Virus record (IMG/VR): IMGVR_UViG_3300032167_007852
Span: 62,001-126,000 of that record
DNA: 64,000 bases
Source of the DNA: an uncultured virus (IMG/VR IMGVR_UViG_3300032167_007852)
Taxonomy: Duplodnaviria > Heunggongvirae > Uroviricota > Caudoviricetes
Direction: 5' to 3' (one strand)
The position numbers and the translations under genes are program-made. The notes beneath the pieces were generated by a model, which was not told the DNA's origin, made no database searches, and saw nothing but the letters and a program-made list of their open reading frames with translations. This document shows positions 490 to 28,160 of this stretch, piece by piece. Each line of letters opens with the position of its first letter. The first letter of the stretch is position 1.

Positions 490-1227
490 ATGATGAGAGT
501 TATGTTTGCTACAATTCAATCCGAAAGCGGTCTACATTTATTAGGATTATGGCACATATGTTTATTGGTCGGAAGTTTTACCTTTTTAAATTGGATGGTT
601 AAATATCAAAAACAAAATATTTTTATTGAAAAAATATCAACTTTATTTATATTAGGATTACAAATTATATTATATGGTTGGTATATAATAGGACCTGAGA
701 GTTTGTTTCTAAAAGGATTACCTCTGTATACATGTAGAATAGTGTTGTATTTATTTACAATAGGCATATTTTGTAATAATAAGTTTTGTCTAAAATTAGG
801 TAGTTATTGGGGATTTTATGGGGGTATAGCAGGGTTAATATTCCCTACAATATTTAAATATCCTTTCCCGCATATATTACAAATAACAACTGTATTATTA
901 CACGTATATATTATGTTAATATCAGGCAACTATCTGTTTGTCAAAAAGATTGGTTCAACTAGAGAGGATGTAAAAATGTGTTGTATAATAACAACTATTT
1001 TGTTAACGATTAATACAATAATTAATTTTATATTCGGCACAAATTATACATCGACAACTAGAATGCCATTACATTTAATAAATTTAGGTATAAATATTCC
1101 AATTCAGTTTTGTTATTTAGCAGTTGTATTAGGTTATATTATAGTAACTATATTTCAACATTGGGTTGTTGGAAGAGTAAATAGTAAATATGAACCTATT
1201 ATAACTACAAAGGAGGTATCTAAATGA
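490..1227 (+). CDS. YwaF/TMEM164-like integral membrane protein
   Basis: about 6-7 hydrophobic segments; LPLYTCR and FPH..Q....LH motifs; GGGAGG SD. Confidence 0.65.
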   Translation: MMRVMFATIQSESGLHLLGLWHICLLVGSFTFLNWMVKYQKQNIFIEKISTLFILGLQIILYGWYIIGPESLFLKGLPLYTCRIVLYLFTIGIFCNNKFCLKLGSYWGFYGGIAGLIFPTIFKYPFPHILQITTVLLHVYIMLISGNYLFVKKIGSTREDVKMCCIITTILLTINTIINFIFGTNYTSTTRMPLHLINLGINIPIQFCYLAVVLGYIIVTIFQHWVVGRVNSKYEPIITTKEVSK

Positions 1228-6384: not shown

Positions 6385-6403
6385 ACGGTATAACAATAAT
6401 GTA
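6385..6403 (+). promoter_or_regulatory. extended late-type promoter ACGGTAT-AACA-N6-TA
   Basis: the same ACRGTATAACA extension occurs at 10585 and 16103. Confidence 0.6.
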
Positions 6404-6430
6404 TCATAAAATTAAAGGAGGTAAATAATT

Positions 6431-7866: not shown

Positions 7867-9951
7867 ATGAGTAAGAAAATATCTATATATCATCAATTAG
7901 ATACAATCCATAAAGAATTATTAAAAATGGATAGTGATGTTATAAATGAAATAGTTGAAATGTTAAAAGGGATAAACTTTGAAGGAATTGTAGAATATTT
8001 TAATAGTACAAAAGAAATGGATGATATGGATTTATTCACATGTAGAAAACTGGTAGAGATATTACAATTTATCTATAATAACACAGACATTGTTCCACCA
8101 GTATCAGATTCAACTTATGATAAATTATATCAAATAATGTTAGATGCAGGATTAGGAGATATTGTAGGTTCCGTGAATAGTCAAGGTAAACCTGTAAGAG
8201 AACATCGTTATCCAGATTTAAGAGGAACTTTAAATAAAGTTCATTTTGTATTCAATGTTGATAAAGAAGGAGACAAAAGAAGAAGTATAGAAGATTGGAT
8301 AACAACTATAGAAAATATATTAGGAAGAGGAATAAATAACACAGAAGAATTTGAAGTAAGATTACAAGCTAAATGGGATGGTTGTTCAGCAGTATTTGAA
8401 TGTGATGAAAATGGTAATGTTGAACATGTATTAATGAGAGGGGATACAGAAAAGAATCTAGCAGTTGATATAGTTAAATTATTTGAAGATTTTGTAGATT
8501 TCCAAATATTTGCAAATGGTAAAGATAAGTTTGCAGTTCAAACAGAAGTTCTTATGAACCAAGCAGATTATGAGAAAATTATTGTAGAATATAAAGATTT
8601 TAAATCACCAAGATCTGCGACATCTTCAATATTAAATGAAAAAGTGTTACAACCAAAGTTAACAAAATATCTTACAGTAGAACCATTAAGAATTCAATAT
8701 GTTGGTAAACAACCTGAGATAATTCCTAATGAAAATTATGATATGATTTCAAATCTATTTGATTTAAGAAATATAAGAGAATGTATTAAGGAAATAAACG
8801 AACATGCAAAAGCTGATGGTAAAGTAACTGATGGAGTTGTGTTACATTTAACAAACAAGAAACTTCAAGAAAAGTTAGGTAGAGATGGAGCAATAAATAG
8901 ATATGAGGTTGCATATAAATTCCCAGCAGAAGCAACTAAAGCAATCTTATTAGATATAGATTTCTCATACGGATTAGGAGGTAATGTAACTCCAGTAGCT
9001 AAAATAGAACCAGTAGTAATGTTAGGTAAAACTATAAGTTCAATATCAATGGGTTCTATAGATAGATTTAGAAGTATGGACCATCTTACATCAGGAAGTG
9101 AAATAATAGTAAGATATGAAATAATTCCGTATATGGATTTAGACCATACATGTAAAATAAATGAAACAGGAAAACGTTTCTATGTCCCAACTCATTGTAA
9201 ACATTGTGGTAGTTTGTTAATAGAAGATCCTTTATTAAAATGTGTTAATGAAGAATGTCCTTCTAGAATAATAGGTAATGTTGTAAATTATATAAATAAA
9301 ATGAGAATAGAAAATCTTAATATAGAAACAGTTTCAACATTATTCGATCAAGGAATAATAACAGGTATAGAATCATTATATAAATTAGAAGAACATAAAT
9401 CTAAAATAGTATCATTACCAGGATTTGGAGAAAAATCATATGAAAATATGATTGATGGAATCAATAAACGTAAAGTGGTATTTGATTATGAGTTATTAGG
9501 TTCATTAGGAATTCAATCAATAGGTGTTAGAATGTTTAAGAAAATTCTATCAGTAATGGATTTAGAAACATTATTAAGATTAGCAAAAGATCAAATGTTG
9601 GTTGTAAACTTAATGGGATTATCAGGATTTGGTGAGAAAACAGCAAGTAGAGTTCAATATGGTGTAGTGAATAAATTAAGTACAATATATTTCCTATTAG
9701 ACCAAATACAATTAAAAGAAAAAGTAGCACCAGGAAAACTAAAAGGAAAAGTATGTTTCTCACAAATAAGAGATCCTAAATTTGAATCAGAATTAATAGC
9801 TAATGGATATGAAGTAGTTGATTCATTAACTAAAACTACAAATTATCTTATAGTACCAAATTTAGATGTAACATCAAGTAAAATAACAAAAGCCAAAAAA
9901 TATGGAATATGCGTAATGAGTTTAGAACAAGCTAAATTAAATTTAAAATAG
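7867..9951 (+). CDS. ligA: NAD-dependent DNA ligase
   Basis: SDSTYD, KWDG adenylation motif, RGD, DGVV, AYKF, C4 zinc finger (CKHC...C..EEC), HhH repeats (LPGFGEK), C-terminal BRCT. Confidence 0.93.
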   Translation: MSKKISIYHQLDTIHKELLKMDSDVINEIVEMLKGINFEGIVEYFNSTKEMDDMDLFTCRKLVEILQFIYNNTDIVPPVSDSTYDKLYQIMLDAGLGDIVGSVNSQGKPVREHRYPDLRGTLNKVHFVFNVDKEGDKRRSIEDWITTIENILGRGINNTEEFEVRLQAKWDGCSAVFECDENGNVEHVLMRGDTEKNLAVDIVKLFEDFVDFQIFANGKDKFAVQTEVLMNQADYEKIIVEYKDFKSPRSATSSILNEKVLQPKLTKYLTVEPLRIQYVGKQPEIIPNENYDMISNLFDLRNIRECIKEINEHAKADGKVTDGVVLHLTNKKLQEKLGRDGAINRYEVAYKFPAEATKAILLDIDFSYGLGGNVTPVAKIEPVVMLGKTISSISMGSIDRFRSMDHLTSGSEIIVRYEIIPYMDLDHTCKINETGKRFYVPTHCKHCGSLLIEDPLLKCVNEECPSRIIGNVVNYINKMRIENLNIETVSTLFDQGIITGIESLYKLEEHKSKIVSLPGFGEKSYENMIDGINKRKVVFDYELLGSLGIQSIGVRMFKKILSVMDLETLLRLAKDQMLVVNLMGLSGFGEKTASRVQYGVVNKLSTIYFLLDQIQLKEKVAPGKLKGKVCFSQIRDPKFESELIANGYEVVDSLTKTTNYLIVPNLDVTSSKITKAKKYGICVMSLEQAKLNLK

Positions 9952-9954
9952 AAC

Positions 9955-9966
9955 AACAATAATGTA
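9955..9966 (+). promoter_or_regulatory. AACA-N6-TA promoter of the large ncRNA
   Basis: AACA-ATAATG-TA; the last base coincides with the first base of the RNA closing stem. Confidence 0.6.
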
Positions 9967-10573
9967 ATAAATGTTTGAAGAATTTTAGCCCCAATAAATA
10001 AATTATTGGGGCTCTTAGTAACATGAGAATTACTTAACCGTAACCAGAACGACGTAAACTGTTAATTCCAGTGATACGGATTAGTACGCATCGGTTTTGC
10101 ATGTGAACGGAGGTCAATAGATTTATTTTTTATAAATCTTGGGGTGAAACATATTCTTCAGTCTTAATTTGTCTTTTATTTTTTTATCGGTTCTTCATAT
10201 AAGTGACTGACGAAAAGTTATGTCTGGTCGTAAGTACGAATCATAAGTACGCATTTGCAGGAACATGATTTTGGAAGTCGACCGACAATACGAAGTAGCG
10301 GCTGTATGTGACTTAATGATAAACAAATAAAGACTATACAATTAAGATTTTAGATGGACGGAAGGGTAGTCAGGTTTTTGCTTGATGTGAATCCAACCGT
10401 GATTAATTAGATTTTTTAGCTCCCTTGTCGGAGCAGTACATAAATTTGAACTGGTATTACTTACCTGAGACTACTTAGTATTGACATCAAGGTTTATCAT
10501 TATAAGTGGTCAGCATATTCTTACCTTAGAATATGTAAAGGGTGAGTAATACCCTTCATTCGTCAAATTTATT
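9966..10573 (+). ncRNA. large (~608 nt) ornate structured ncRNA, ROOL-like or novel
   Basis: ORF-free and GC-richer than the flanks; the 5' end 9966-9983 pairs with the 3' end 10558-10573; many nested and crossing helices (see findings). Confidence 0.75.
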
Positions 10574-10628
10574 AAATTTTAATTACGGTATAACAAATAT
10601 GTAGATTAAAATTATAGGAGGTAATGTT

Positions 10629-10985
10629 ATGAATGGACAAAAAATAACAAAAACTGTTTTAGTGATAGGTAAAGTAGAAATTAAAGATTTTCAATGGAAT
10701 ATATTAAAGAAAATTATGGGAGTTCCAGAAGAAGAATTTGAACATACAATAATTAATTTGGTTAATAAACCATTAGCATTTGCAGTACCTGAAAATGTTG
10801 AGAAATATGATATGGTGTTAACTTCTCAATCTTCACCATTGTTATTAAGAAACATGAAGAAAAGATGTAAAGAAGTTCCATTAGTAAAACCATATAAAGA
10901 TAAAAATAAAAAATTTGTTGGATTTATGAAACTAAATGAAGTTGTAGTGAAATACGATTATGAATTATTCAGATTAGGAAAATAA
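10629..10985 (+). CDS. hypothetical protein (basic)
   Basis: 118-aa ORF; AGGAGG SD; own AACA-N6-TA at 10592-10603. Confidence 0.7.
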
Positions 10986-12359: not shown

Positions 12360-13121
12360 ATGAGTAAAATTAATTTCCTTAATACAGCTCCATGTGCTGA
12401 AGCATTAGATAGAATAGCTTCTAAAACGTTTATAAGATTAAGTTATGAATATGGAATATGTATGATCCGTAGAGATGTTATACCTGCTTTAGCATCTCTA
12501 TGTCTTAAAAGTTTAATAGGTAATTTAAACTCATTAAGAGAAGGAAATGATATGGCTGCTTATATAAATTTATTTGATTTAGTAACATTTGGAGTTGTTG
12601 AACTAAACTTTGAAGAAACAGAAAAGGCAACTAATATATTACCAGATTTCAGAATAGGACCTAAAGGATGTGAATTAAGTAAAATGGATTTTAAAGAATA
12701 TTCTAAACATCAAGTTCCTATAGAAGAATATGGTGGAAGAATATTAAATGTAAAATCTGGAGAGTATAATGAGACATGGTCAGATTTATTGAATACAATA
12801 TGTGATATATCATATGGTAATATAGGATTAATATTAAACGATAAACGTATGATGTCAATATTCATAGAGATATTCTTAGAAGAAGTATTTTATGATTTAG
12901 GATTAAATTTTGGTAAGAAGAACTACGCATATAAATTATTCGATCTATTATATTTCAATTATAAAGATGAAGACAAAATGTGGGGAACTGATGTAATGCC
13001 AGAATATAAATTAATTGCAAAGGATGATGTGTTCCAAGAAGACAGAATTAATAAAGCGATTGATGAGTATGAGAAAGATAACAGTAAAGATGATGAGTAT
13101 AAACCATTAAGATATCAATAA
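12360..13121 (+). CDS. hypothetical protein, possibly tandem HU/IHF-like folds
   Basis: INLFDLVTFGV...ILPDFRIGPKG resembles the HU strand/arm/P-x-F-x-x-G pattern; second unit YKLFDLLYF. Confidence 0.45.
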   Translation: MSKINFLNTAPCAEALDRIASKTFIRLSYEYGICMIRRDVIPALASLCLKSLIGNLNSLREGNDMAAYINLFDLVTFGVVELNFEETEKATNILPDFRIGPKGCELSKMDFKEYSKHQVPIEEYGGRILNVKSGEYNETWSDLLNTICDISYGNIGLILNDKRMMSIFIEIFLEEVFYDLGLNFGKKNYAYKLFDLLYFNYKDEDKMWGTDVMPEYKLIAKDDVFQEDRINKAIDEYEKDNSKDDEYKPLRYQ

Positions 13122-13133
13122 GGAGGTAATAAT

Positions 13134-14804
13134 ATGAAAGCCATGCTTGCGGATTATTGTAGAAGTTTTGATGATAAATTAAACTTACCTTTAATCAGAA
13201 GAGAGTTAGACAAACCTTTATATTTATATGTGTATGAAACAATTAAATCCTTGGAGGTTTTTGATAGCGTCCGTATTTTATCATATGAATATAAAGAAAT
13301 GCCTAATGATATCAAGATGAATGAATATCAAAGAACAAGATCTCAAAATGGAAAGAAAGTTCAAGAAGAGTCTGTTGAAGTAATGCATATGACAGAATCT
13401 AGAGTAAACGAATTAACGATTCATTATGAGTTATCAATAGATACAAAAGCAGAAGATGGGACAACAAAGGTAGTTAGTAAGAAGTATTCAAAGAATATTC
13501 TTATTCCAGTTGCAGATGATGATGGGTATTATATGTTAAAAGGAAAAAGATATATCCTTATGTATCAATTAGTTGATTCTACAACATATAGTACGTCTAA
13601 TAGTGTTGTATTAAAATCAATAATGCCTATAGTATTAAAAAGAAAATCAAAAGTAATTCATGATGTAGATAGAAATCCATTTACAATTCCTGTATATTCT
13701 ACAGCGATATTTAAAAATGAGATAAACATGATGTTATTGTTCTTTGCTAAGATGGGATTTAAAGAGGGATTAATGTATCTTAGCATGGATAAAGTAATAT
13801 CATTAACTACGTCATTGGATGATGATTTAGATAAGTATATATATTTTAAAATTAGTCAAGAAGCATTTGTAAAAGTTAATAGATTTGCATTTGATGAATC
13901 TACAGAAGTTAAATCTGTAACAGGAATGATATTAGATGCAGTCAATAATAGATCGACAGTAAAAGATATGTTAGATACAAACTTCTGGTTAGAGAAATTA
14001 GGTCATCAACCTAATATTCAACAACCAAATTTCAAAAGAGCTAAAGCAAGAAATCTTCTATTATCCGTTGACCGTATGATGGATATGACAACAAGAAGAG
14101 TTCTTAATATAGCAGCAGATCATAAAGATAGTATGTATAGTGCATTAAGATGGATGTTTATGAATTATAATGAATTAAAGAGTAAAAGAATAATGGATAT
14201 AACTAACAAGAGATTAAGAGATAATGAATATATAGCATCATTAATGACAAGAGAATTAAGTAACTCATTATACAGAATAATGAGTAAAGTTAGAAAACCA
14301 CAATCAAGAAACTTGAATACGTTAGAAGAGTTATTCTCATTCAGAGGTGATATATTAATTAATAATTTATATAACTCTGGATTATTCAAGTTTGATGATT
14401 CTGTAAACGATTTAGATTTCTTCAGTAAACTACGTTACACGATAAAAGGACCTAATTCACAAGGTGGATCATCAGGAAAAACAATAGCAACATGTCAAAG
14501 AGGGATAGATCCATCATTTGTAGGTAGAATAGATTTAAACACGGTTGGTAATAGTGATCCTGGTGCTACAGGGGTGCTAACTCCATTTATAGAAACACAT
14601 GGGTTAAATATTTCCGATAAAAAAGAACCTGAAAGTAAACAATATGAATTATTAAAAATAATAGAAGAAGCCGTCAAAAATGAATATGATTATATAGAAA
14701 AATTTGGTATAGAAACATATGATGATTATTACGAACTTATGAATAACATTTATAGTACAACTGAAGGTTGTTCTGTAACAGTTAGTAAAGATATAGAAAG
14801 ATAG
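13134..14804 (+). CDS. rpoB: multisubunit RNA polymerase beta subunit, N-terminal half (probably the non-virion RNAP)
   Basis: IPV...DGYYMLKGKRYILMYQL, KRLR, GPNS, RGIDPSFVGRIDLNTVGNSDPGATG (fork-loop/Rif region). Confidence 0.85.
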   Translation: MKAMLADYCRSFDDKLNLPLIRRELDKPLYLYVYETIKSLEVFDSVRILSYEYKEMPNDIKMNEYQRTRSQNGKKVQEESVEVMHMTESRVNELTIHYELSIDTKAEDGTTKVVSKKYSKNILIPVADDDGYYMLKGKRYILMYQLVDSTTYSTSNSVVLKSIMPIVLKRKSKVIHDVDRNPFTIPVYSTAIFKNEINMMLLFFAKMGFKEGLMYLSMDKVISLTTSLDDDLDKYIYFKISQEAFVKVNRFAFDESTEVKSVTGMILDAVNNRSTVKDMLDTNFWLEKLGHQPNIQQPNFKRAKARNLLLSVDRMMDMTTRRVLNIAADHKDSMYSALRWMFMNYNELKSKRIMDITNKRLRDNEYIASLMTRELSNSLYRIMSKVRKPQSRNLNTLEELFSFRGDILINNLYNSGLFKFDDSVNDLDFFSKLRYTIKGPNSQGGSSGKTIATCQRGIDPSFVGRIDLNTVGNSDPGATGVLTPFIETHGLNISDKKEPESKQYELLKIIEEAVKNEYDYIEKFGIETYDDYYELMNNIYSTTEGCSVTVSKDIER

Positions 14805-14847: not shown

Positions 14848-15615
14848 ATGGATATGTATAACGATAGAACTGGTGAATTAAATGTAAATAAATATGGTAC
14901 AATAATGAAAATTATCTATTATAATAATGCACACGATATAATTGTAGAATTTCAAGATGAATATAAATACAAAGTTCATACAGAATATAGAAACTTTAAA
15001 ATCGGACAAGTACGAAACGTATATGACAAAACCGTATATAATGTAGGAATGTTTGGAGAAGGTAAATATAACAGGATTGATTATTTAAAATTATATAATA
15101 CATGGCAACACATGCTTAGAAGATGTTATGATCCATATACAATAAATAACGACCTAACATATGTAGATTGTTTTGTGGATAAAAGATTTCATAATTTACA
15201 AAATTTTGGTATATGGTATGAAAAAGAATTTTATGAAGTAAATAACGAATTGATGTGTTTAGATAAAGATATTTTATATAAAGGTAATAAAATTTATAGT
15301 CCTGAAGCATGTTTGTTTGTACCTGAAAGAATAAATAAGTTATTTATAAGAAATTATAGACAACGAAACGATTTACCTATAGGAGTACATTATAGAAAAG
15401 ATATTGGTAAATATATTGCTAGATGTAATGTCAGTGAAAATGGTGCAGAAAAAAGAGTGCATTTAGGTGAATTTAAAACGCCAATAGAAGCTTTCAATGC
15501 ATACAAAAAGTATAAAGAAGGTTATATAAAAATAATAGCAGACCAATACAAAAATAGAATTCCAGAAAAAGTTTATAAAGCATTATATGATTATATAGTT
15601 GAAATATGTGATTAA
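14848..15615 (+). CDS. free-standing HNH-type homing endonuclease with a C-terminal AP2-like domain
   Basis: YNTWQHMLRRCY, F..LQNF..W, LDKDIL.KGNKIYSPEACLFVP, GVHY...KYIAR...HLGEFKTPIEAF. Confidence 0.75.
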   Translation: MDMYNDRTGELNVNKYGTIMKIIYYNNAHDIIVEFQDEYKYKVHTEYRNFKIGQVRNVYDKTVYNVGMFGEGKYNRIDYLKLYNTWQHMLRRCYDPYTINNDLTYVDCFVDKRFHNLQNFGIWYEKEFYEVNNELMCLDKDILYKGNKIYSPEACLFVPERINKLFIRNYRQRNDLPIGVHYRKDIGKYIARCNVSENGAEKRVHLGEFKTPIEAFNAYKKYKEGYIKIIADQYKNRIPEKVYKALYDYIVEICD

Positions 15616-16096: not shown

Positions 16097-16162
16097 TAAT
16101 AAACAGTATAACAAAATATTAACAGAAAATAAAAAATATTAAAATTTTTAGGAGGTAGTTAT

Positions 16163-17938
16163 ATGAGTAAAAATAACAAATTATCTTTTAATGTATATGT
16201 TGATGCGGACACAAGATTAGCTAAAGTAAATTGTGTTGAGCAAGTAGGAGCGATAATATCTTACACAGAAGCATATGATGAATTTGCCAAAACTCATAAA
16301 ACAACTGCAGAAAATTTAGACAAGGTTCTCAAGTCTTTAGATGATGTATTTAAAGCTGGAAATATAGAAAACGATGTAGAATTGGTTAGAGTGTCTATGG
16401 CTATGTTAGAAACTCCACCATTCATGTTTTACCTAGAATATTTAGAGGATACAGTTTCAGAAAAATTAACATTCAACAAAAAACCAAATGATATATTTGG
16501 TATGCAATTCGAACAAATATTCCCACCGATATTAGGTATGAAAGGAGATGTTCCAGATATGTTAGGAATGGATAATTTTATGTTAGGTTCTAAAAAGAAA
16601 GAAGAACCTAAGAAAGAAGAAGCTAAGAGAACAACATTAACATTTGATGATGTTGTAGGTATGCATGAAGTAAAAGATAAATTAAGAGATGTTATAGATC
16701 AATTTAAAAATGCTGAAAAATATAAAGCATGGAATATAAAACCTATAAAAGGTATATTATTATACGGTCCATCAGGTACAGGAAAATCTTATATATCTGA
16801 AGCATTTGCTAATGAGATAGATGCAAAATTCTTCCCATTATCTTCTGCAGATATAATAAGTAAGTACCTAGGTGAATCAGGTAAGACAATAAGAACCAAA
16901 TTCGAAGAAGCTAGAAAACATCCTTTATCAATAATATATATAGATGAGGTTGATTCAATAGCTGCTAAAAGAGATGGTTCAGAAAACAATAAAGAAAGAA
17001 ATGCAACATTAAATGAACTTCTAGTTCAAATGGCATCACCAGAAAATGATAATGTTATAATGATATTTGCTACAAACATGCTTGATCTATTAGACCCAGC
17101 ATTCTTAAGATCTGGACGTTGTGATTTTAAAATAGAAGTTTCATTACCAGATTTTGATTGCAGAAAAGGTATATTAGAGATAAACTCTAAAGGTAGACCA
17201 TTAGCAGAAGATGTAGATTTTGAAAAGATAGCAAGAAACATGAGTGGTATGAACTGTGCAGATATGGCAGTTGTTGCAAATGAAGCTGCACGTAAAGCTT
17301 TAAAAGCTGGAAAAGATGTAATAGAAGCAGAAGATTTTGATAAAGCATTTGAAGAAATGGTATGTGGTGCTAAATCAGAAACTAAGAGATTAGGTGAAAA
17401 AGAAAAAGACATAGTTTCAATACATGAAACAGGTCACCTATTTGCTAATGAAATATATAAAGTTAACAAAACTAAAAAGATATCAATATTACCTAGAGGT
17501 ACAACTTTAGGATTTGTAATGCATGCAAACGAAGAAGAAGATGATAAATTCTTACAAAGTAAAGAAGAATTAATGAATAGAATAAGAGTTAGCTTAGCAG
17601 GTAGAGCTGCTGAAGAAGTATTCTTTGGAGATGTAACAACAGGAGCTGCAAACGACCTAGAAAAAGCAAATAGTGTAGTTGAAGCTATGATATGTAATTA
17701 CGGTCTTGTAGCTGAATTAGGATTATCAACATTCAATTTAAATAACCCAATGGTTATAGGTCTAATACAAGAATACAAAAATAAAATATTAGACAAGTGT
17801 TATGAAGATGTTATAAAAATGGTTGTAGAAAACAAAGAAAAAATGAGAGAATTTGCAGATGTGTTAAAAGAAAAAGAAGAAATGACAGGAGCTGAAATAG
17901 AAGAAATATTATATCCTGAAACAGCAGATGCTGAATAA
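16163..17938 (+). CDS. ftsH: FtsH-like AAA+ zinc metalloprotease without N-terminal TM segments
   Basis: TFDDVVG, GPSGTGKS, IYIDEVD, LDPAFLRSGRCD, HETGH zinc motif, LAGRAAEE, TTGAANDLEKA. Confidence 0.9.
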   Translation: MSKNNKLSFNVYVDADTRLAKVNCVEQVGAIISYTEAYDEFAKTHKTTAENLDKVLKSLDDVFKAGNIENDVELVRVSMAMLETPPFMFYLEYLEDTVSEKLTFNKKPNDIFGMQFEQIFPPILGMKGDVPDMLGMDNFMLGSKKKEEPKKEEAKRTTLTFDDVVGMHEVKDKLRDVIDQFKNAEKYKAWNIKPIKGILLYGPSGTGKSYISEAFANEIDAKFFPLSSADIISKYLGESGKTIRTKFEEARKHPLSIIYIDEVDSIAAKRDGSENNKERNATLNELLVQMASPENDNVIMIFATNMLDLLDPAFLRSGRCDFKIEVSLPDFDCRKGILEINSKGRPLAEDVDFEKIARNMSGMNCADMAVVANEAARKALKAGKDVIEAEDFDKAFEEMVCGAKSETKRLGEKEKDIVSIHETGHLFANEIYKVNKTKKISILPRGTTLGFVMHANEEEDDKFLQSKEELMNRIRVSLAGRAAEEVFFGDVTTGAANDLEKANSVVEAMICNYGLVAELGLSTFNLNNPMVIGLIQEYKNKILDKCYEDVIKMVVENKEKMREFADVLKEKEEMTGAEIEEILYPETADAE

Positions 17939-25865: not shown

Positions 25866-27262
25866 ATGGAATTCTTACAATTAAAAGAAACTAGAAGAGA
25901 CGATATTATGTTATTGAATGTTATTTATAATCAACCAAGTCCACAAACTAATTGGGTGGATTCTATAGATGTTATATATAAAGATTTAGCAACTGATGAA
26001 AAATATTTAGAAACTATATTAAATCCTACAATGGATGTATATTTTACAAAACCTGAATATAGAAATTATGAACATCCTAAATATGTTTTACCAGTAGATC
26101 AATGTGAGATTAAAAATATAAGTTGTAAATATGCAACTAGAGATATAGCTAAACAAGCAGGTGGAAAATATGAAGCTTATTATAGAAGTTGTGCAGAATC
26201 AAAGAATAGAAAAGCAATGAAAAATCTTCATAAGTATCCATATGTATTAGCAAGTGATTATGATCCAGAGTCATATTATAGAATACAATTTTCATGTAAT
26301 TATTTAAATGAAAAACCTAAACCAATAACTAAACTATATTCAGATATAGAGGTTGATGGTATAAATGTAGAAGGTTTCGTTACAGATGGTGTTGCACCAA
26401 TAAATGCAATAACATTAATAGATGAAAAAACTAGAAAATGTTTTACATTCGCATTAAGAAATGAAAAGAATCCTCAAATACAAGAACTTGAAGATAATTT
26501 AGATTTATTTAAACATGAATGTCATAAGATGTTTGATGAATCATATGGAGAGTTTGAATATAATATAGTATTCTATGATGAAAAAGATGAATTAGCAATG
26601 TTGAAAGATTATTTTAAATTAATTCATTTATTAAAAAGAGATTTTATAATGTTTTGGAATATGAACTTCGACGCAAATTATTTAATGGATAGAATAACCG
26701 AATTAGGTGAAAATCCTGCAGATATAATGTGTCATCCAGAATTTCCTATAAAGAAATGTTATTATTATGCAGATAGAAAAAACTTTGCAGTTAAGATGAA
26801 AAAGGATTGGTTTACAATTTCAGATTATACAGTATGGGTAGACCAAATGATTTTATATGCACAAATAAGAAAAGGTCAATCAGAATTAGGTTCTGTTAAA
26901 TTAAACATTATAGGACAAAAAGAATTAGGTGATGAAAAACTTGATTATAGTGAAGAAGCAAACATCAAAACATTACCATATGTGAATTATAAAAAGTTCT
27001 TATTGTACAACATAAAAGACGTTCTTTTACAATATGGTATAGAAAGAAAAACTTCAGATTTAGATAACTTATATACAAGAAGTATATTAAATAGTGTTCC
27101 TTATAAGAAAGTTTTCTCACAAACAGCATTATTAAGAAATAGATGTTATGTTGAATATTTAAAACAAGGTTATGTTATCGGTAATAATATAAACTTAGAT
27201 TATAATAAAGATTGGGATTCAGATGAGGATGAAGAAGAAAAAGAAAAATTCGCAGGAGCGTT
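25866..27262 (+). CDS. family-B DNA polymerase N-terminal subunit, exon 1 (3'-5' exonuclease)
   Basis: ExoI YSDIEV, ExoII FWNMNFDANYL, ExoIII YNIKDV; ends at ...FAGA-TT, the 5' splice site. Confidence 0.88.
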
Positions 27263-28160
27263 TAATACCAATGGACGCTATAAAAGCTCTCTAATTGCTG
27301 GAACACCCTTAGAGCCTAAAGTACCAAAGTGTAAAAATCTTTAGGATTGGGCAATCAGCAGCGAAGATATTTATTATAAAAATTATATTGGAAATAAAAT
27401 TATAAAGGTGTTGATAATAATGTACTACAAAGATATAGCTGAAGATGAAAATGAAATATTCATAACAGTTTTTATAGATGGTGAGTATTATTATGATTAT
27501 TTGGTTAGCAATAAAGGTAGAATTTTTAGTTTAAAAACATTAACTTTTATGGAAGGAACACATAATCATAATGGTTATGTTAGAATAAAATTAAGGGATA
27601 GTGAAGGTAAACAACATATAAAACCTAAACATAGAATAGTAGCAGAAAGTTTTTGTGAAAATAATGAAAATAAACCTTTTGTTAACCATATAGACGGGAA
27701 TAAAGATAATAATAGTCCAGATAATTTAGAATGGGTTACAGCTAAAGAAAATACAAAACATGCGATAGAAACTGGACTTATATACACAGTCGGCGAAAAA
27801 TCTCATTTTGCAACTATAAATGAAGAAACAGCACATAAAATATGTAAGTTGATTGATGAAGGTAAAATGAGTTTAAAAGAGATAGCTCAATATCTTAATG
27901 TGGGATACGATTGTGTTAAGAAAATAAATAGAGGAAAATCGTGGGTACACGTTTCAAACCAATATAATTTTTTAAAATAAATATAACGTTCAACGACTAT
28001 CGAAACCACACTGTAAAGTGAAAGGGAGTAGAGTACACTCAAGTGAGTGGAAACGGGAGCCATTCTGAAAAGAATGATGATATAGTCTGATCTCATATGA
28101 AAGTATGAGCGGTTCTTAGAGAAACGGCGTGGGAGTAACGATCCCACGTGAACATGAATG
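27263..28160 (+). mobile_element. group I intron (IA2-like) in the DNA polymerase gene
   Basis: P1 AGCGTT/GACGCT with a U-G wobble; P10 CCAAT pairs with exon-2 GTTGG; core AATTGCTGGAA, GGCAATCAGCAG, GTTCAACGACTA, GATATAGTCT; P9 CTCATAT-GAAA-GTATGAG; terminal G at 28160; splicing restores FAGALVGDP...DFSSLYPS. Confidence 0.92.
27408..27980 (+). CDS. intron-encoded NUMOD4-like/HNH homing endonuclease
   Basis: YLVSNKGRIFS, HRIVAESF, VNHIDGNKDNN..NLEWVT..EN, C-terminal HTH. Confidence 0.9.
   Translation: MLIIMYYKDIAEDENEIFITVFIDGEYYYDYLVSNKGRIFSLKTLTFMEGTHNHNGYVRIKLRDSEGKQHIKPKHRIVAESFCENNENKPFVNHIDGNKDNNSPDNLEWVTAKENTKHAIETGLIYTVGEKSHFATINEETAHKICKLIDEGKMSLKEIAQYLNVGYDCVKKINRGKSWVHVSNQYNFLK

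What the first reader, a model, noticed from the sequence alone, without database searches (positions are those of the whole stretch)
9955..10573. Stand-alone ~608-nt ornate, pseudoknotted ncRNA gene with its own phage promoter (ROOL-like or new class)
Seen: a ~680-bp ORF-free gap in an otherwise densely coding genome, GC-richer than its flanks. An AACA-N6-TA promoter (9955-9966) ends at the first base of a closing helix, AATAAATGTTTGAAGAAT (9966-9983) paired with ATTCGTCAAATTTATT (10558-10573). Internal helices include AGCCCCAATAA/TTATTGGGGCT (9987-10013), AGATTTAT/ATAAATCT, and a long arm in which 10161-10188 pairs with 10318-10349. GTAGTCAGGT (10366-10375)/ACCTGAGACTAC (10463-10474) crosses CTTGATGT (10381-10388)/ACATCAAG (10484-10491), which forms a pseudoknot. 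CCGACAA (10282-10288) is complementary to TTGTCGG (10425-10431), and there are 3' hairpins CATATTCT/AGAATATG and AAGGGT/ACCCTT. Known: ROOL and GOLLD are large ornate RNAs of Bacillota and their phages with unknown function; ROOL is about this size and has been reported to form RNA-only multimers. Inference: this is a ROOL-class RNA or an undescribed relative, expressed from a phage promoter in a jumbo phage. No tRNA genes were seen next to it.
Basis: partly seen in the sequence, partly recalled or inferred. Interest (0 to 1): 0.88.

Follow-up and report, generated by a model that had tools for sequence, protein, structure and literature searches.

The report
New large folded jumbo-phage RNA
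The gene-free gap after the DNA ligase gene of this uncultured giant phage from animal guts encodes a folded non-coding RNA of about 590 bases that matches no catalogued family, is kept by compensating mutations in related phages, and looks abundant in gut RNA samples; its job is unknown.

Summary
The ORF-free, GC-richer gap (9952-10628) is real. It holds a + strand gene for a structured RNA of about 592 nt (predicted start A9966, last conserved helix ends 10557).

Seven distinct variants from related ruminant-gut jumbo phages share three conserved domains, separated by variable arms:
- D1 (10006-10121): four nested helices; 9 of 27 pairs changed on both sides.
- D2 (10233-10276): the apex of a long central arm, with AGUAC..AGUAC..GGAA..GGAA.
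- D3 (10448-10557): a three-way junction closed by a 17-bp helix; 15 of 39 pairs changed on both sides.

An AACA-N6-TA late-promoter motif of the AR9 type lies 8-47 nt upstream of D1 in 7 of 7 variants.

In two bovine-gut metatranscriptome runs from one study, contigs over the RNA have depths of 12-295, against 0-7.5 over the ligase gene.

No Rfam family matches, ROOL and GOLLD included, and the 128-kb record has no tRNA gene. ROOL membership is therefore not met: this is a new family within the known kind "large structured phage RNAs".

The long arm and the CATATTCT/AGAATATG hairpin hold.

Function is unknown. My best guess is a trans-acting scaffold or decoy that binds a partner through invariant non-Watson-Crick surfaces, among them three candidate sarcin-ricin-type motifs.

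The parts
7867..9951 (+). NAD-dependent DNA ligase gene (upstream neighbour; not part of the RNA)
   Evidence: Pfam PF01653/PF03120/HHH_5 and phrog_3869 at E 1e-83. The RNA follows this gene in every relative whose ligase is >=79% identical.
9955..9966 (+). Putative late promoter AACAATAATGTA (AACA-N6-TA); predicted start at A9966
   Evidence: Letters read. The AR9 late consensus is AACA-(6N)-TA/G with the last base as the start site (PMC5312081 passages). The motif lies 8-47 nt upstream of D1 in 7 of 7 variants. 28 of 104 RBS-preceded gene starts in the record have it within 90 nt, against 7.5% of random 90-nt windows. The same 12 letters stand before gene 6431. The start site is not mapped.
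9987..10013 (+). Optional 5' hairpin AGCCCCAATAA/TTATTGGGGCT; its 3' arm overlaps the 5' arm of P1
   Evidence: Present in the window, L049, L052 and L027. Absent in L007 and L014. L051 has a different hairpin there.
10006..10121 (+). Domain 1 (D1), four nested helices: P1 10007-15/10109-17, P2 10021-25/10100-04, P3 10036-40/10092-96, P4 10053-56/10075-78, P5 10058-61/10069-72. The internal loops are invariant.
   Evidence: On 7 distinct sequences 94.7% of cells are paired, and 9 of 27 pairs change on both sides. 0 of 500 shuffles reach this; slid controls give 0-2. One X18 RNA-run contig changes 4 of 5 P3 pairs on both sides. One X17 contig compensates 33:89 and 49:72. Model R1 scores 130-144 bits on all variants.
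10027..10068 (+). Candidate pseudoknot: J2/3 GAAUUA (10027-32) with the P5 loop UAAUUC (10063-68)
   Evidence: Perfect 6-nt complementarity read. Both segments are invariant in all 7 variants, so no covariation is possible. This is inference only.
10046..10087 (+). Candidate sarcin-ricin-type motif in D1: GAA 10047-49 opposite AGUA 10083-86, flanked by the pair 10046:10087
   Evidence: The AGUA/GAA signature is from PMC1865062. Positions 10046 and 10087 change together: A.C in 4 variants, C.A in 2, A.A in 1, and C:G in one X17 contig (table 3). The 3D motif cannot be tested here.
10155..10354 (+). Long irregular central arm whose sequence varies between variants
   Evidence: RNAalifold on the window, L049 and L052 gives 93 pairs, 10 changed on both sides, for example GTCTTAATT/AATTAAGAT against GTCTCAATT/AATTGAGAT. 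In all 7 variants the MFE fold of the central region is one long arm with the D2 module at its apex.
10233..10276 (+). Domain 2 (D2) apex module: AGUAC (10233-37), AGUAC (10246-50), GGAA (10260-63), GGAA (10273-76). These are two nested candidate sarcin-ricin-type motifs separated by a short helix.
   Evidence: All four words are present in the same order in 7 of 7 variants, while the spacers differ. The spacer duplex forms in the same register in 7 of 7. Cognate pairs average -3.44 kcal/mol against -0.91 for non-cognate pairs (n=42). The SRL 14-mer AGUACGAGAGGAAC is from PMC4574749.
10355..10447 (+). Variable stretch with lineage-specific hairpins; absent or replaced in L007, L014, L051 and L052
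Evidence: Alignments. AGATTTAT (10119-26) and ATAAATTT (10438-45) pair in the RNAalifold consensus of the 3 window-type variants, with all 8 pairs invariant.
10448..10557 (+). Domain 3 (D3), a three-way junction: closing helix 10448-66/10540-57, helix A 10469-77/10503-11 with extension 10479-84/10497-502, hairpin B 10514-21/10528-35
   Evidence: RNAalifold gives 20 pairs, 6 changed on both sides. On 5 distinct sequences aligned to model R2, 97.3% of cells are paired and 15 of 39 pairs change on both sides. 0 of 500 shuffles reach this; slid controls give 1-4. The MFE fold equals this structure, z = -5.7. L027 compensates the closing helix too: GGTAATATAA/TTATATTACC.
10558..10591 (+). 3' tail with the conserved word AAATTTTA (10574-81); the 3' end is not defined
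   Evidence: No canonical terminator in 9700-10900 (0 found; shuffles give 0.4). L027 has a strong hairpin plus a T-run after D3. One 480-nt X18 contig ends at 10552.
10592..10985 (+). Separate downstream unit: promoter-like AACAAATATGTA (10592-603), RBS (10616-21) and a 118-aa ORF of no known family
   Evidence: The cassette is conserved in the variants and similar stretches occur elsewhere in the record. The ORF is kept downstream in all RNA-bearing variants at 79-85% identity; L049 is cut short. It has no Pfam, PHROG or Atlas match.

Best explanation
The gap holds a discrete gene for a + strand non-coding RNA of about 590 nt, belonging to a family that is in no catalogue. So far the family is seen only in one clade of uncultured jumbo phages of animal guts, mostly bovine. 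These phages encode their own multisubunit RNA polymerase.

The RNA is probably made from its own AR9-type late promoter (AACA-N6-TA, start near 9966). It folds into three conserved domains joined by arms that differ between lineages:
- D1: four short nested helices that frame invariant internal loops.
- D2: the tip of a long arm, carrying AGUAC..AGUAC..GGAA..GGAA.
- D3: a three-way junction closed by a 17-bp helix.

How it works is inferred, not shown. The invariant letters sit in loops and junctions that the covarying helices hold in place, and three AGUA/GAA word pairs fit the sarcin-ricin (bulged-G) motif, a common docking surface. I therefore think it acts in trans as an abundant scaffold or decoy that binds a protein or RNA partner, or copies of itself, late in infection. 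I think antisense pairing or control of the next gene is less likely.

My odds: real structured RNA gene of a new family, about 0.9; the partner-binding mechanism, about 0.35.
For: SHOWN
(1) Structure is conserved by compensating changes.
- D1: 9 of 27 pairs change on both sides in 7 distinct sequences (0 of 500 shuffles reach this; slid controls 0-2).
- D3: 15 of 39 pairs in 5 distinct sequences (0 of 500; slid controls 1-4).
- RNAalifold found the D3 closing helix independently of my model.
- Contigs from RNA runs add further compensated pairs in P3 and P4.
(2) Strand. Read on the + strand, 94.7% and 97.3% of cells are paired. Read on the - strand, 87.2% and 87.2% are. There are 34 G-U cells.
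(3) Selection acts on the nucleotides. D1 columns are 91% identical, while the flanking ligase DNA is about 82% identical.
(4) Promoter. AACA-N6-TA lies 8-47 nt upstream of D1 in 7 of 7 variants. The motif is enriched before genes: 28 of 104 starts against 7.5% of random windows, and 22 of those 28 end 24-42 nt before the start codon. It matches the AR9 late consensus (PMC5312081). The phage has an RNAP beta-like gene.
(5) Hint of abundance. In 2 of the 3 runs on record as RNA (X17 and X18, one study), contigs over 10015-10418 have depth 52-295 and 12-167. Over the ligase gene they have 0.3-7.5 and 0-6.8, and downstream 7-31 and 4.5-15. In X20, which is probably DNA, the depth is flat. One 480-nt contig joins D1, D2 and D3. 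The ligase end of the L049-like strain is 94% identical to the window, so it was not lost to the likeness filter.
(6) No family matches. Rfam gives nothing, while the same scan finds group I introns and tRNAs in relatives.

INFERRED
- The sarcin-ricin-type motifs, from the signature AGUA/GAA (PMC1865062; PMC4574749) and from the kept words and spacer helix.
- The GAAUUA/UAAUUC pseudoknot.
- The partner-binding role.
Against: - No transcript end is mapped. All runs were contigs, whose depth is one figure per contig and can include other strains, and the tool warns it cannot rank genes. Both informative runs come from one study.
- D1 alone folds no better than shuffles (z = +0.62; 147 of 200 do as well).
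- The whole region scores as well on the - strand.
- Alignments A7 and A13 were fitted to models built from these same sequences, which favours the structure. There are only 5-7 distinct sequences, and they are related.
- No canonical terminator separates the RNA from the next gene.
- The three candidate S/R motifs and the pseudoknot rest on invariant letters, so nothing tests them here. The inner D2 motif lacks the GAGA tetraloop of the true sarcin-ricin loop.
- No partner is identified: the conserved neighbour p118 has no known fold or family.
- The family is narrow. Model R1 finds it in 6 of 16 related records and in none of the 10 whose ligase is 33-44% identical.
Confidence: 0.7

Rival explanations
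1. It is a very divergent member of the ROOL or GOLLD family, and shares their still unknown role.
For: The size is similar: 592 nt predicted here against a ROOL average of 581 nt (PMC5737381). The habitat is rumen or gut, the carrier is a phage, and the RNA looks highly abundant. ROOL is reported to be as abundant as 16S rRNA in one strain (bioRxiv 2024.12.08.627333).
Against: - No ROOL or GOLLD match even at E <= 10 with lax filters, none at gathering score, and none for RF03087 in the whole record.
- None of six further variants matches any family.
- There is no tRNA gene in the 128 kb, whereas ROOL and GOLLD often sit near tRNAs.
- Only one multistem junction is supported here, against six junctions and three pseudoknots described for ROOL.
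- Caveat: the ROOL control rang in no genome, so I did not check the sensitivity of that one search.
Confidence: 0.04
2. It is not a free-standing RNA. It is a cis-acting leader of the downstream p118 operon, or a structured 3' UTR of the ligase mRNA, that controls expression or stability.
For: It lies on the same strand as both neighbours. No canonical terminator stands at either side. The synteny ligase-RNA-p118 is strict in all RNA-bearing relatives.
Against: - A conserved promoter-like cassette plus RBS (10592-10621) lies between the RNA and p118, and similar stretches occur elsewhere in the record.
- L027 has a strong terminator after D3 and an extra gene before p118.
- Contig depth falls at both borders of the RNA in X17 and X18.
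- The RNA has its own AACA-N6-TA motif in 7 of 7 variants.
- 450-870 nt is far larger than known phage leaders.
Confidence: 0.08
3. It is a ribozyme: the conserved loops of D1 form an active site, for example for self-processing or for action on a host RNA.
For: Invariant internal-loop letters are framed by covarying short helices, with a likely pseudoknot. D1 is not stable by secondary structure alone, as in tertiary-structure-dependent RNAs. Peripheral arms vary around a fixed core.
Against: No known ribozyme family matches: group I and II introns, RNase P and the small self-cleavers are all in Rfam. The D3 junction strands do not fit a hammerhead core (my reading of the sequence; consensus recalled, not tested). 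No processing site or substrate can be seen.
Confidence: 0.1
4. It is the remnant of a mobile element, such as an ORF-less or degenerate self-splicing intron that landed behind the ligase gene.
For: This phage group is rich in introns and homing nucleases. L011 has four group I introns beside its ligase locus, G005 has two, and the window has HNH genes at 14848-15615 and 27408-27980. Relatives with 33-44% ligase identity lack the gap altogether.
Against: The group I model that hits those introns finds nothing here at E <= 10. The ligase ORF is complete with its own stop codon, and no split exon flanks the element. The element has its own promoter motif, strong purifying selection and high apparent abundance, none of which is expected for a decaying remnant.
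Confidence: 0.05
5. It acts at the DNA level, as a replication origin or packaging site whose short repeats (AGTAC x3, GGAA) are protein-binding iterons. On this view the RNA signal is incidental.
For: It sits among replication and recombination genes: ligase, UvsX-like, polymerase and SbcC-like. It has short direct repeats about 13 nt apart and AT-rich runs.
Against: The compensating changes keep base pairs and tolerate G-U only on the + strand. This fits RNA, not duplex DNA. Contig depth in RNA libraries is 10-60 times that of the flanks, yet flat in the probable DNA library.
Confidence: 0.03

Closest known systems
ROOL RNA (Rfam RF03087; Weinberg et al. 2017, PMC5737381; Kretsch et al., bioRxiv 2024.12.08.627333)
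   Same: Both are large (about 0.6 kb), elaborately folded, phage-borne RNAs of unknown function. Both were first seen in cow rumen data and can be very abundant. In both, variable parts surround a conserved core.
   Different: There is no covariance-model match at any threshold tried and no tRNA neighbours. The architecture supported here is simpler. The host here is a jumbo phage with its own RNA polymerase and a late-type promoter, not a prophage of Lactobacillales. Multimer formation is untested.
GOLLD RNA (Rfam; accession RF01998 recalled, not checked in a call)
   Same: Both are large phage or prophage RNAs with a conserved region plus a less conserved region. GOLLD expression is reported to rise during lysis, which would be analogous to the late promoter here.
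   Different: No model match in the all-Rfam scans. GOLLD is longer (>800 nt) and often sits next to or around tRNAs.
Late transcription units of Bacillus phage AR9 (non-virion RNAP; promoter AACA-(6N)-TA/G; PMC5312081)
   Same: The same promoter word stands at the right place, and the motif is enriched before genes of this phage. The phage encodes a multisubunit RNAP beta-like protein.
   Different: AR9 late units described in the passages read drive protein genes, and I saw no large ncRNA there. Promoter use in this uncultured phage is inferred, not measured.
Sarcin-ricin / loop E (bulged-G) motif, strands AGUA/GAA (PMC1865062); SRL of 23S-28S rRNA, AGUACGAGAGGAAC (PMC4574749)
   Same: Three AGUA words each face a GAA word across an internal loop or helix. 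In D2 the words are AGUAC and GGAA, the same as the two strands of the SRL stem.
   Different: None carries the GAGA tetraloop of the SRL; the inner D2 motif is capped by a variable stem-loop. The motif is assigned from sequence alone.
Candidate structured RNAs mined from IMG/VR intergenic regions (PMC10690425)
   Same: Same data source and the same logic (covariation in phage intergenic regions). A piece of D1 or D3 could be among their 8,495 candidates.
   Different: Their candidates are 29-151 nt long, and no large multi-domain RNA is described in the passages I read. My motif search of their supplements found nothing, but 3 files, probably including the alignments, could not be searched.

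Membership tests
ROOL (RF03087) | Matches the Rfam covariance model at or above its gathering score (99.1 bits) | tested here: not met
   The window gives 0 matches at gathering score. In 9800-10750 the best matches of any family are E = 5.3 and 6.1, neither to ROOL. RF03087 on the whole 128-kb record gives 0 at E <= 10, with 2 candidates scored (its control rang nowhere). Six further variants give no family on the RNA.
ROOL (RF03087) | Length around 581 nt | tested here: met
   Predicted start to end of D3 is 592 nt in the window, and 443-865 nt across the 7 variants. The ROOL average is taken from PMC5737381.
ROOL (RF03087) | [quoted passage not shown] | tested here: inconclusive
   One three-way junction (D3) is supported by covariation. 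D1 is purely nested. One candidate pseudoknot exists but has no covariation. The central arm is not resolved in all variants.
ROOL / GOLLD | Frequent location next to tRNA genes and in prophages | tested here: not met
   ARAGORN finds 0 tRNA genes in the window and in the whole record. The locus lies between a ligase gene and an unknown ORF.
ROOL / GOLLD | RNA-only homo-oligomeric cage | not testable with these tools
   This needs native gels, mass photometry or cryo-EM of the transcript.
AR9-type late (non-virion RNAP) transcription unit | AACA-(6N)-TA/G immediately upstream, with the last base as the start | tested here: met
   The word stands at 9955-9966. It is kept in 7 of 7 variants, 8-47 nt before D1, and is enriched before genes. 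The consensus is from PMC5312081. Whether it is used as a start site cannot be tested with contigs.
AR9-type late (non-virion RNAP) transcription unit | The phage encodes multisubunit RNA polymerase subunits | tested here: met
   ORF 3972-6356 matches PF00562 at E 1.7e-17 and phrog_3295 (RNA polymerase beta subunit) at E 1.3e-116. I did not look for other subunits.
Group I intron (RF00028) | Matches the covariance model and interrupts a gene | tested here: not met
   No match at E <= 10. The same model scores 57-95 bits on introns in L011 and G005. The ligase ORF is complete.
Sarcin-ricin (bulged-G) motif | AGUA strand opposite a GAA strand, flanked by Watson-Crick pairs | tested here: inconclusive
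   The sequence signature is present three times and is kept in 7 of 7 variants. The flanking helix in D2 forms in the same register in 7 of 7. The flanking pair 10046:10087 changes together. The non-canonical geometry cannot be tested here.

The most novel reading that the evidence does not exclude
The RNA may be a self-assembling or ribosome-directed particle. Its two stacked AGUAC/GGAA modules copy the stem of the ribosomal sarcin-ricin loop, and its palindromic words (GUAC, GAAUUA/UAAUUC) could pair between copies. On this reading it could form a ROOL/GOLLD-like multimer, or act as a decoy that captures a translation GTPase or a host ribosome-targeting defence factor during late infection by a phage that brings its own transcription machinery.
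Probability: 0.12. Interest if true: 0.85.

Novelty: new variant of a known kind. Interest (0 to 1): 0.62.

Why it matters
Only a few large, elaborately folded bacterial and phage RNAs are known (ROOL, GOLLD, OLE, raiA), and none has an established function.

This one adds a new family with features that make it easy to work on:
- Three compact domains whose folds are already pinned by covariation.
- A natural 443-nt minimal version (the L007 type), suitable for structure work.
- A defined late-promoter context in a phage that transcribes with its own polymerase.
- Apparent high abundance in rumen RNA.

Earlier notes of this same scan (unchecked here) report other uncatalogued large RNAs in ruminant-gut and other jumbo phages. 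If those hold, large structured RNAs may be a regular part of jumbo-phage biology rather than an oddity.

Tried and rejected
It is not kept in L052 and is absent in four variants.
Their 5' arms lie in window-type-only sequence, and their 3' arms clash with D3 helices that covary.
- AAGGGT/ACCCTT hairpin: replaced by the D3 closing helix.
- Public phage genomes: blastn of the gap found no match.
- Genome contigs pattern scan: 0 hits. Three viral contigs pattern scans returned no variant that the searches had not already found, apart from L014.
- Distant relatives: models R1 and R3 gave no credible hit in records whose ligase is 33-44% identical. The weak hits (E 0.05-0.7) I treat as chance. R3 also missed the D3 of L027, which carries a large insertion.
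- G005, a complete 264-kb relative: no homologue. Its GC-richer 522-nt gap looks intron-like by eye, not like this RNA.
- Trans-pairing target: I looked for >=11-nt complements of the RNA in the record and saw nothing beyond scattered single hits. The script did not filter out self-matches and its output was cut, so this is weak. A 12-mer shared with genome positions 558 and 1719 belongs to an unrelated direct repeat.
- p118 as a partner: no family in Pfam or PHROGs and nothing in the Atlas. I did not fold it.
- Run X19 (on record as RNA) had no contig over the RNA and only depth 0-3.5 over the ligase gene. I draw nothing from it.
- csRNA catalogue supplements: no occurrence of four short motifs, but 3 files were not searched.
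- Papers: searches for a description of such an RNA in rumen or jumbo phages found none. This covers only the held library.
- Earlier scan notes: look-ups by place and by sequence found nothing for this locus.
Full report
WHAT IS THERE

The window is part of a 128-kb IMG/VR virus record estimated at 58% complete. Close relatives are 227-228 kb long. The record carries the genes of a jumbo myovirus: an RNA polymerase beta-like subunit, a UvsX-like recombinase, DNA polymerase, SbcC-like and FtsH-like proteins, terminase, major head and sheath proteins, and HNH nucleases.

Between the NAD-dependent ligase gene (7867-9951) and a 118-aa ORF (10629-10985) lies a 677-bp stretch. It holds no + strand ORF of 30 aa or more. 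Its GC content is 0.30-0.36, against 0.21-0.29 around it. The only ORFs are 30 and 48 aa on the - strand, and the longer one is broken by a 2-nt indel in two close variants.

RELATIVES

Searches with the ligase protein, an alignment of ligases, and DNA patterns from the conserved core gave the following:
- IMG/VR contigs and metagenome contigs that together yield seven distinct versions of the gap: the window, L049 (=L050), L052, L051, L007, L014 (=L053) and L027.
- All come from phages whose ligase is 79-100% identical to this one.
- Nothing in 185,579 prokaryote genomes with the 21-mer used, and nothing in 50,697 GenBank phage records by blastn.
- Phages with 33-44% ligase identity have no gap after the ligase gene (8 loci examined).
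- Covariance models of the two best-defined domains find nothing credible anywhere in 10 such records.

The element therefore belongs to one narrow clade. Public runs that hold the stretch are animal faeces, gut and bovine-gut metagenomes. There are 20 rows from 15 studies, 6 rows of which may be the source sample.

THE FOLD

The variants share islands of near-identity separated by stretches that cannot be aligned.

Domain 1 (10006-10121).
- It has four nested helices. On 7 distinct sequences 94.7% of cells pair, and 9 of 27 pairs change on both sides. 0 of 500 column shuffles reach this, and sliding the partner by 1-3 columns gives 0-2 such pairs. Each helix has at least one compensated pair.
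- Contigs from RNA libraries add more. One X18 contig has P3 as GGTTG/CAACC instead of AACCG/CGGTT, with 4 of 5 pairs changed on both sides. One X17 contig compensates 10038:10094 and 10054:10077 (tables 3 and 7).
- The unpaired segments are invariant.
- D1 has no thermodynamic signal of its own: z = +0.62, and 147 of 200 shuffles fold as well. Its helices are short, so it probably needs tertiary contacts or a partner.
- J2/3 GAAUUA (10027-32) is a perfect complement of the P5 loop UAAUUC (10063-68). This is a candidate pseudoknot that the data cannot test, because neither side varies.

Domain 3 (10448-10557).
- RNAalifold found a long-range helix, GAA-CU-GGUAUUACUUACCU with AGGGUGAGUAAUACC-C-UUC.
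- It closes a three-way junction with helix A (10469-77/10503-11, plus an extension) and hairpin B (10514-21/10528-35).
- On five distinct sequences aligned to a model of the window's structure, 97.3% of cells pair and 15 of 39 pairs change on both sides. 0 of 500 shuffles reach this; slid controls give 1-4.
- The MFE fold of the window sequence is this same structure, z = -5.7.
- L027 carries about 200 nt extra inside D3, yet still compensates the closing helix.

The centre.
- It is one long irregular arm in every variant. In the three window-type variants 93 pairs are predicted, and 10 are compensated.
- At its apex all 7 variants keep AGUAC-N8/9-AGUAC-N9..22-GGAA-N9..14-GGAA (window 10233-10276).
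- The two spacers form a short helix in the same register in 7 of 7. Cognate pairs average -3.44 kcal/mol, non-cognate pairs -0.91.

Caveats. A7 and A13 were aligned to models built from these sequences, which leans towards the structure. The sequences are few and related.

STRAND AND CODING

Read on the + strand, the two domains pair at 94.7% and 97.3%. Read on the - strand, they pair at 87.2% and 87.2%. The difference is the 34 G-U cells. D1 columns are 91% identical, while the ligase DNA beside it is about 82% identical. The changes that do occur sit in helices and compensate each other. This is the pattern of an RNA, not of a protein gene or of duplex DNA.

PROMOTER AND ENDS

- AACAATAATGTA at 9955-9966 fits the AR9 late promoter, AACA-(6N)-TA/G, in which the last base is the start (PMC5312081, passages read).
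- In this record 28 of 104 gene starts preceded by an RBS have the word within 90 nt, against 7.5% of random 90-nt windows. 22 of those 28 end 24-42 nt before the start codon.
- The same 12 letters precede gene 6431.
- All 7 variants keep the word 8-47 nt before D1, although the sequence around it differs. In L007 it ends 8 nt before P1.
- Predicted lengths from that base to the end of D3 are 592, 596, 594, 575, 443, 492 and 865 nt.
- Sigma-70-like sites are no more frequent than in shuffles, and no canonical terminator is found in 9700-10900. L027 does have a strong hairpin plus T-run after D3.
- A conserved promoter-like cassette and RBS (10592-10621) separate the RNA from the next ORF.

EXPRESSION

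Only assembled contigs were available, so starts, ends and strand cannot be read. The tool warns that contig depth cannot rank genes. With that limit, mean contig depths were:

| Run | Over 10015-10418 | Over ligase (8500-9913) | Downstream |
|---|---|---|---|
| X17 (RNA) | 52-295 | 0.3-7.5 | 7-31 |
| X18 (RNA) | 12-167 | 0-6.8 | 4.5-15 |
| X20 (RNA label is a guess) | flat across the stretch | | |

- X17 and X18 are 2 of the 3 runs on record as RNA, and both come from one bovine-gut study.
- Single contigs over the RNA reach depths of 247, 262 and 283.
- The high-depth contigs are L049-like. L049 is 94% identical to the window from 9643 to 10717, so that strain's ligase end was not excluded by the 85% likeness filter.
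- One 480-nt contig runs from D1 through D2 to 10552.

I take this as a good hint, not proof, of an abundant discrete RNA.

WHAT IT IS NOT

- Rfam 15, with all 4,227 families, gives nothing at gathering score in the window, in the rest of the record, or on six other variants.
- With lax filters the best scores in the gap are E = 5.3 and 6.1, to a snoRNA and a microRNA.
- The ROOL model finds nothing in the record at E <= 10. That search's control rang nowhere, so its sensitivity is unchecked.
- The same Rfam scans do find group I introns and tRNAs in relatives.
- The record has no tRNA gene.
[quoted passage not shown] Of those features only the size is met here.

HOW IT MAY WORK

Shown: three conserved, covariation-supported modules hold invariant unpaired letters in place, while the arms between them drift, shrink (443 nt) or grow (865 nt).

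Inferred:
- The strands of the sarcin-ricin (bulged-G) motif are AGUA and GAA (PMC1865062, passages). The ribosomal loop itself reads AGUACGAGAGGAAC (PMC4574749, one passage).
- D2 has AGUAC twice and GGAA twice, in the nested order that would give two such motifs stacked on a short helix.
- D1 has AGUA (10083-86) opposite GAA (10047-49). The flanking positions 10046 and 10087 change together: A.C in 4 variants, C.A in 2, A.A in 1, and C:G in an X17 contig.
- Such motifs are common docking sites for proteins and RNA.

I therefore favour a trans-acting scaffold or decoy made late in infection, at about 0.35. A ribozyme, a cis-leader, an intron remnant and a DNA element are listed as rivals with their evidence. 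The inner D2 motif lacks the GAGA tetraloop, so a faithful mimic of the ribosomal loop is unlikely. That bolder reading is kept as the novel case.

NOVELTY

- I found no description of this RNA in five literature searches, nor in the passages read from the IMG/VR structured-RNA catalogue. That catalogue's candidates are 29-151 nt, and part of its supplements could not be searched.
- Earlier notes of this scan report other uncatalogued large RNAs with late-type promoters in ruminant-gut jumbo phages. None shares sequence with this one, and I did not test them.
- I rate it a new family within a known kind. It is well supported as a structured RNA gene, narrow in distribution, and of unknown function.

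Noticed in passing
L011:91-1837 and L011:5725-6095: The relative with 44% ligase identity has four group I introns (57-95 bits) within 1.8 kb upstream of its ligase locus. Its ligase ORF stops early at 579 aa and is followed by a 370-nt stretch that looks intron-like by eye. That stretch did not reach the Rfam gathering score.
   Followed up: partly
L077:6576-7038 (G005, 264-kb relative): There are two tandem group I introns (84.6 and 83.7 bits). G005 also has 5 tRNA genes and a GC-richer 522-nt gap at G005 13074-13595 that looks intron-like.
   Followed up: partly
window 10592-10621, 6392-6430, 454-489, 16110-16160 and others: A recurrent cassette TATAACAAnnAnnTA, about 20-25 nt, then AGGAGG precedes many genes. 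It is probably the standard late promoter plus RBS unit of this phage.
   Followed up: partly
window 490-1227: A phage ORF matches the Pfam TMEM164 family (PF14808) at E 3.7e-20. By my recollection this family is mainly eukaryotic, which would make it an unusual gene for a phage.
   Followed up: no
window 25866-27980: A DNA polymerase ORF (492 aa) is followed directly by an HNH endonuclease gene (190 aa). The polymerase gene may be split by a homing element.
   Followed up: no
G000 genome positions about 510-600 and 1670-1760 (outside the window): An identical stretch of at least 87 bp is repeated 1,161 bp apart at the left end of the record, flanking a 945-bp ORF-free gap. It may be a duplication or an assembly artefact.
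   Followed up: no
window 16163-17938: A phage-encoded FtsH-like protein has an AAA domain (E 6e-36) and a peptidase M41 domain (E 6e-35).
   Followed up: no
L051 and L052, between the central arm and D3: Two otherwise different variants share the hairpin CCTCG-AGTTGA-CGAGG where the window has GCTCC-CTTGTC-GGAGC. It may be a swappable peripheral hairpin.
   Followed up: no
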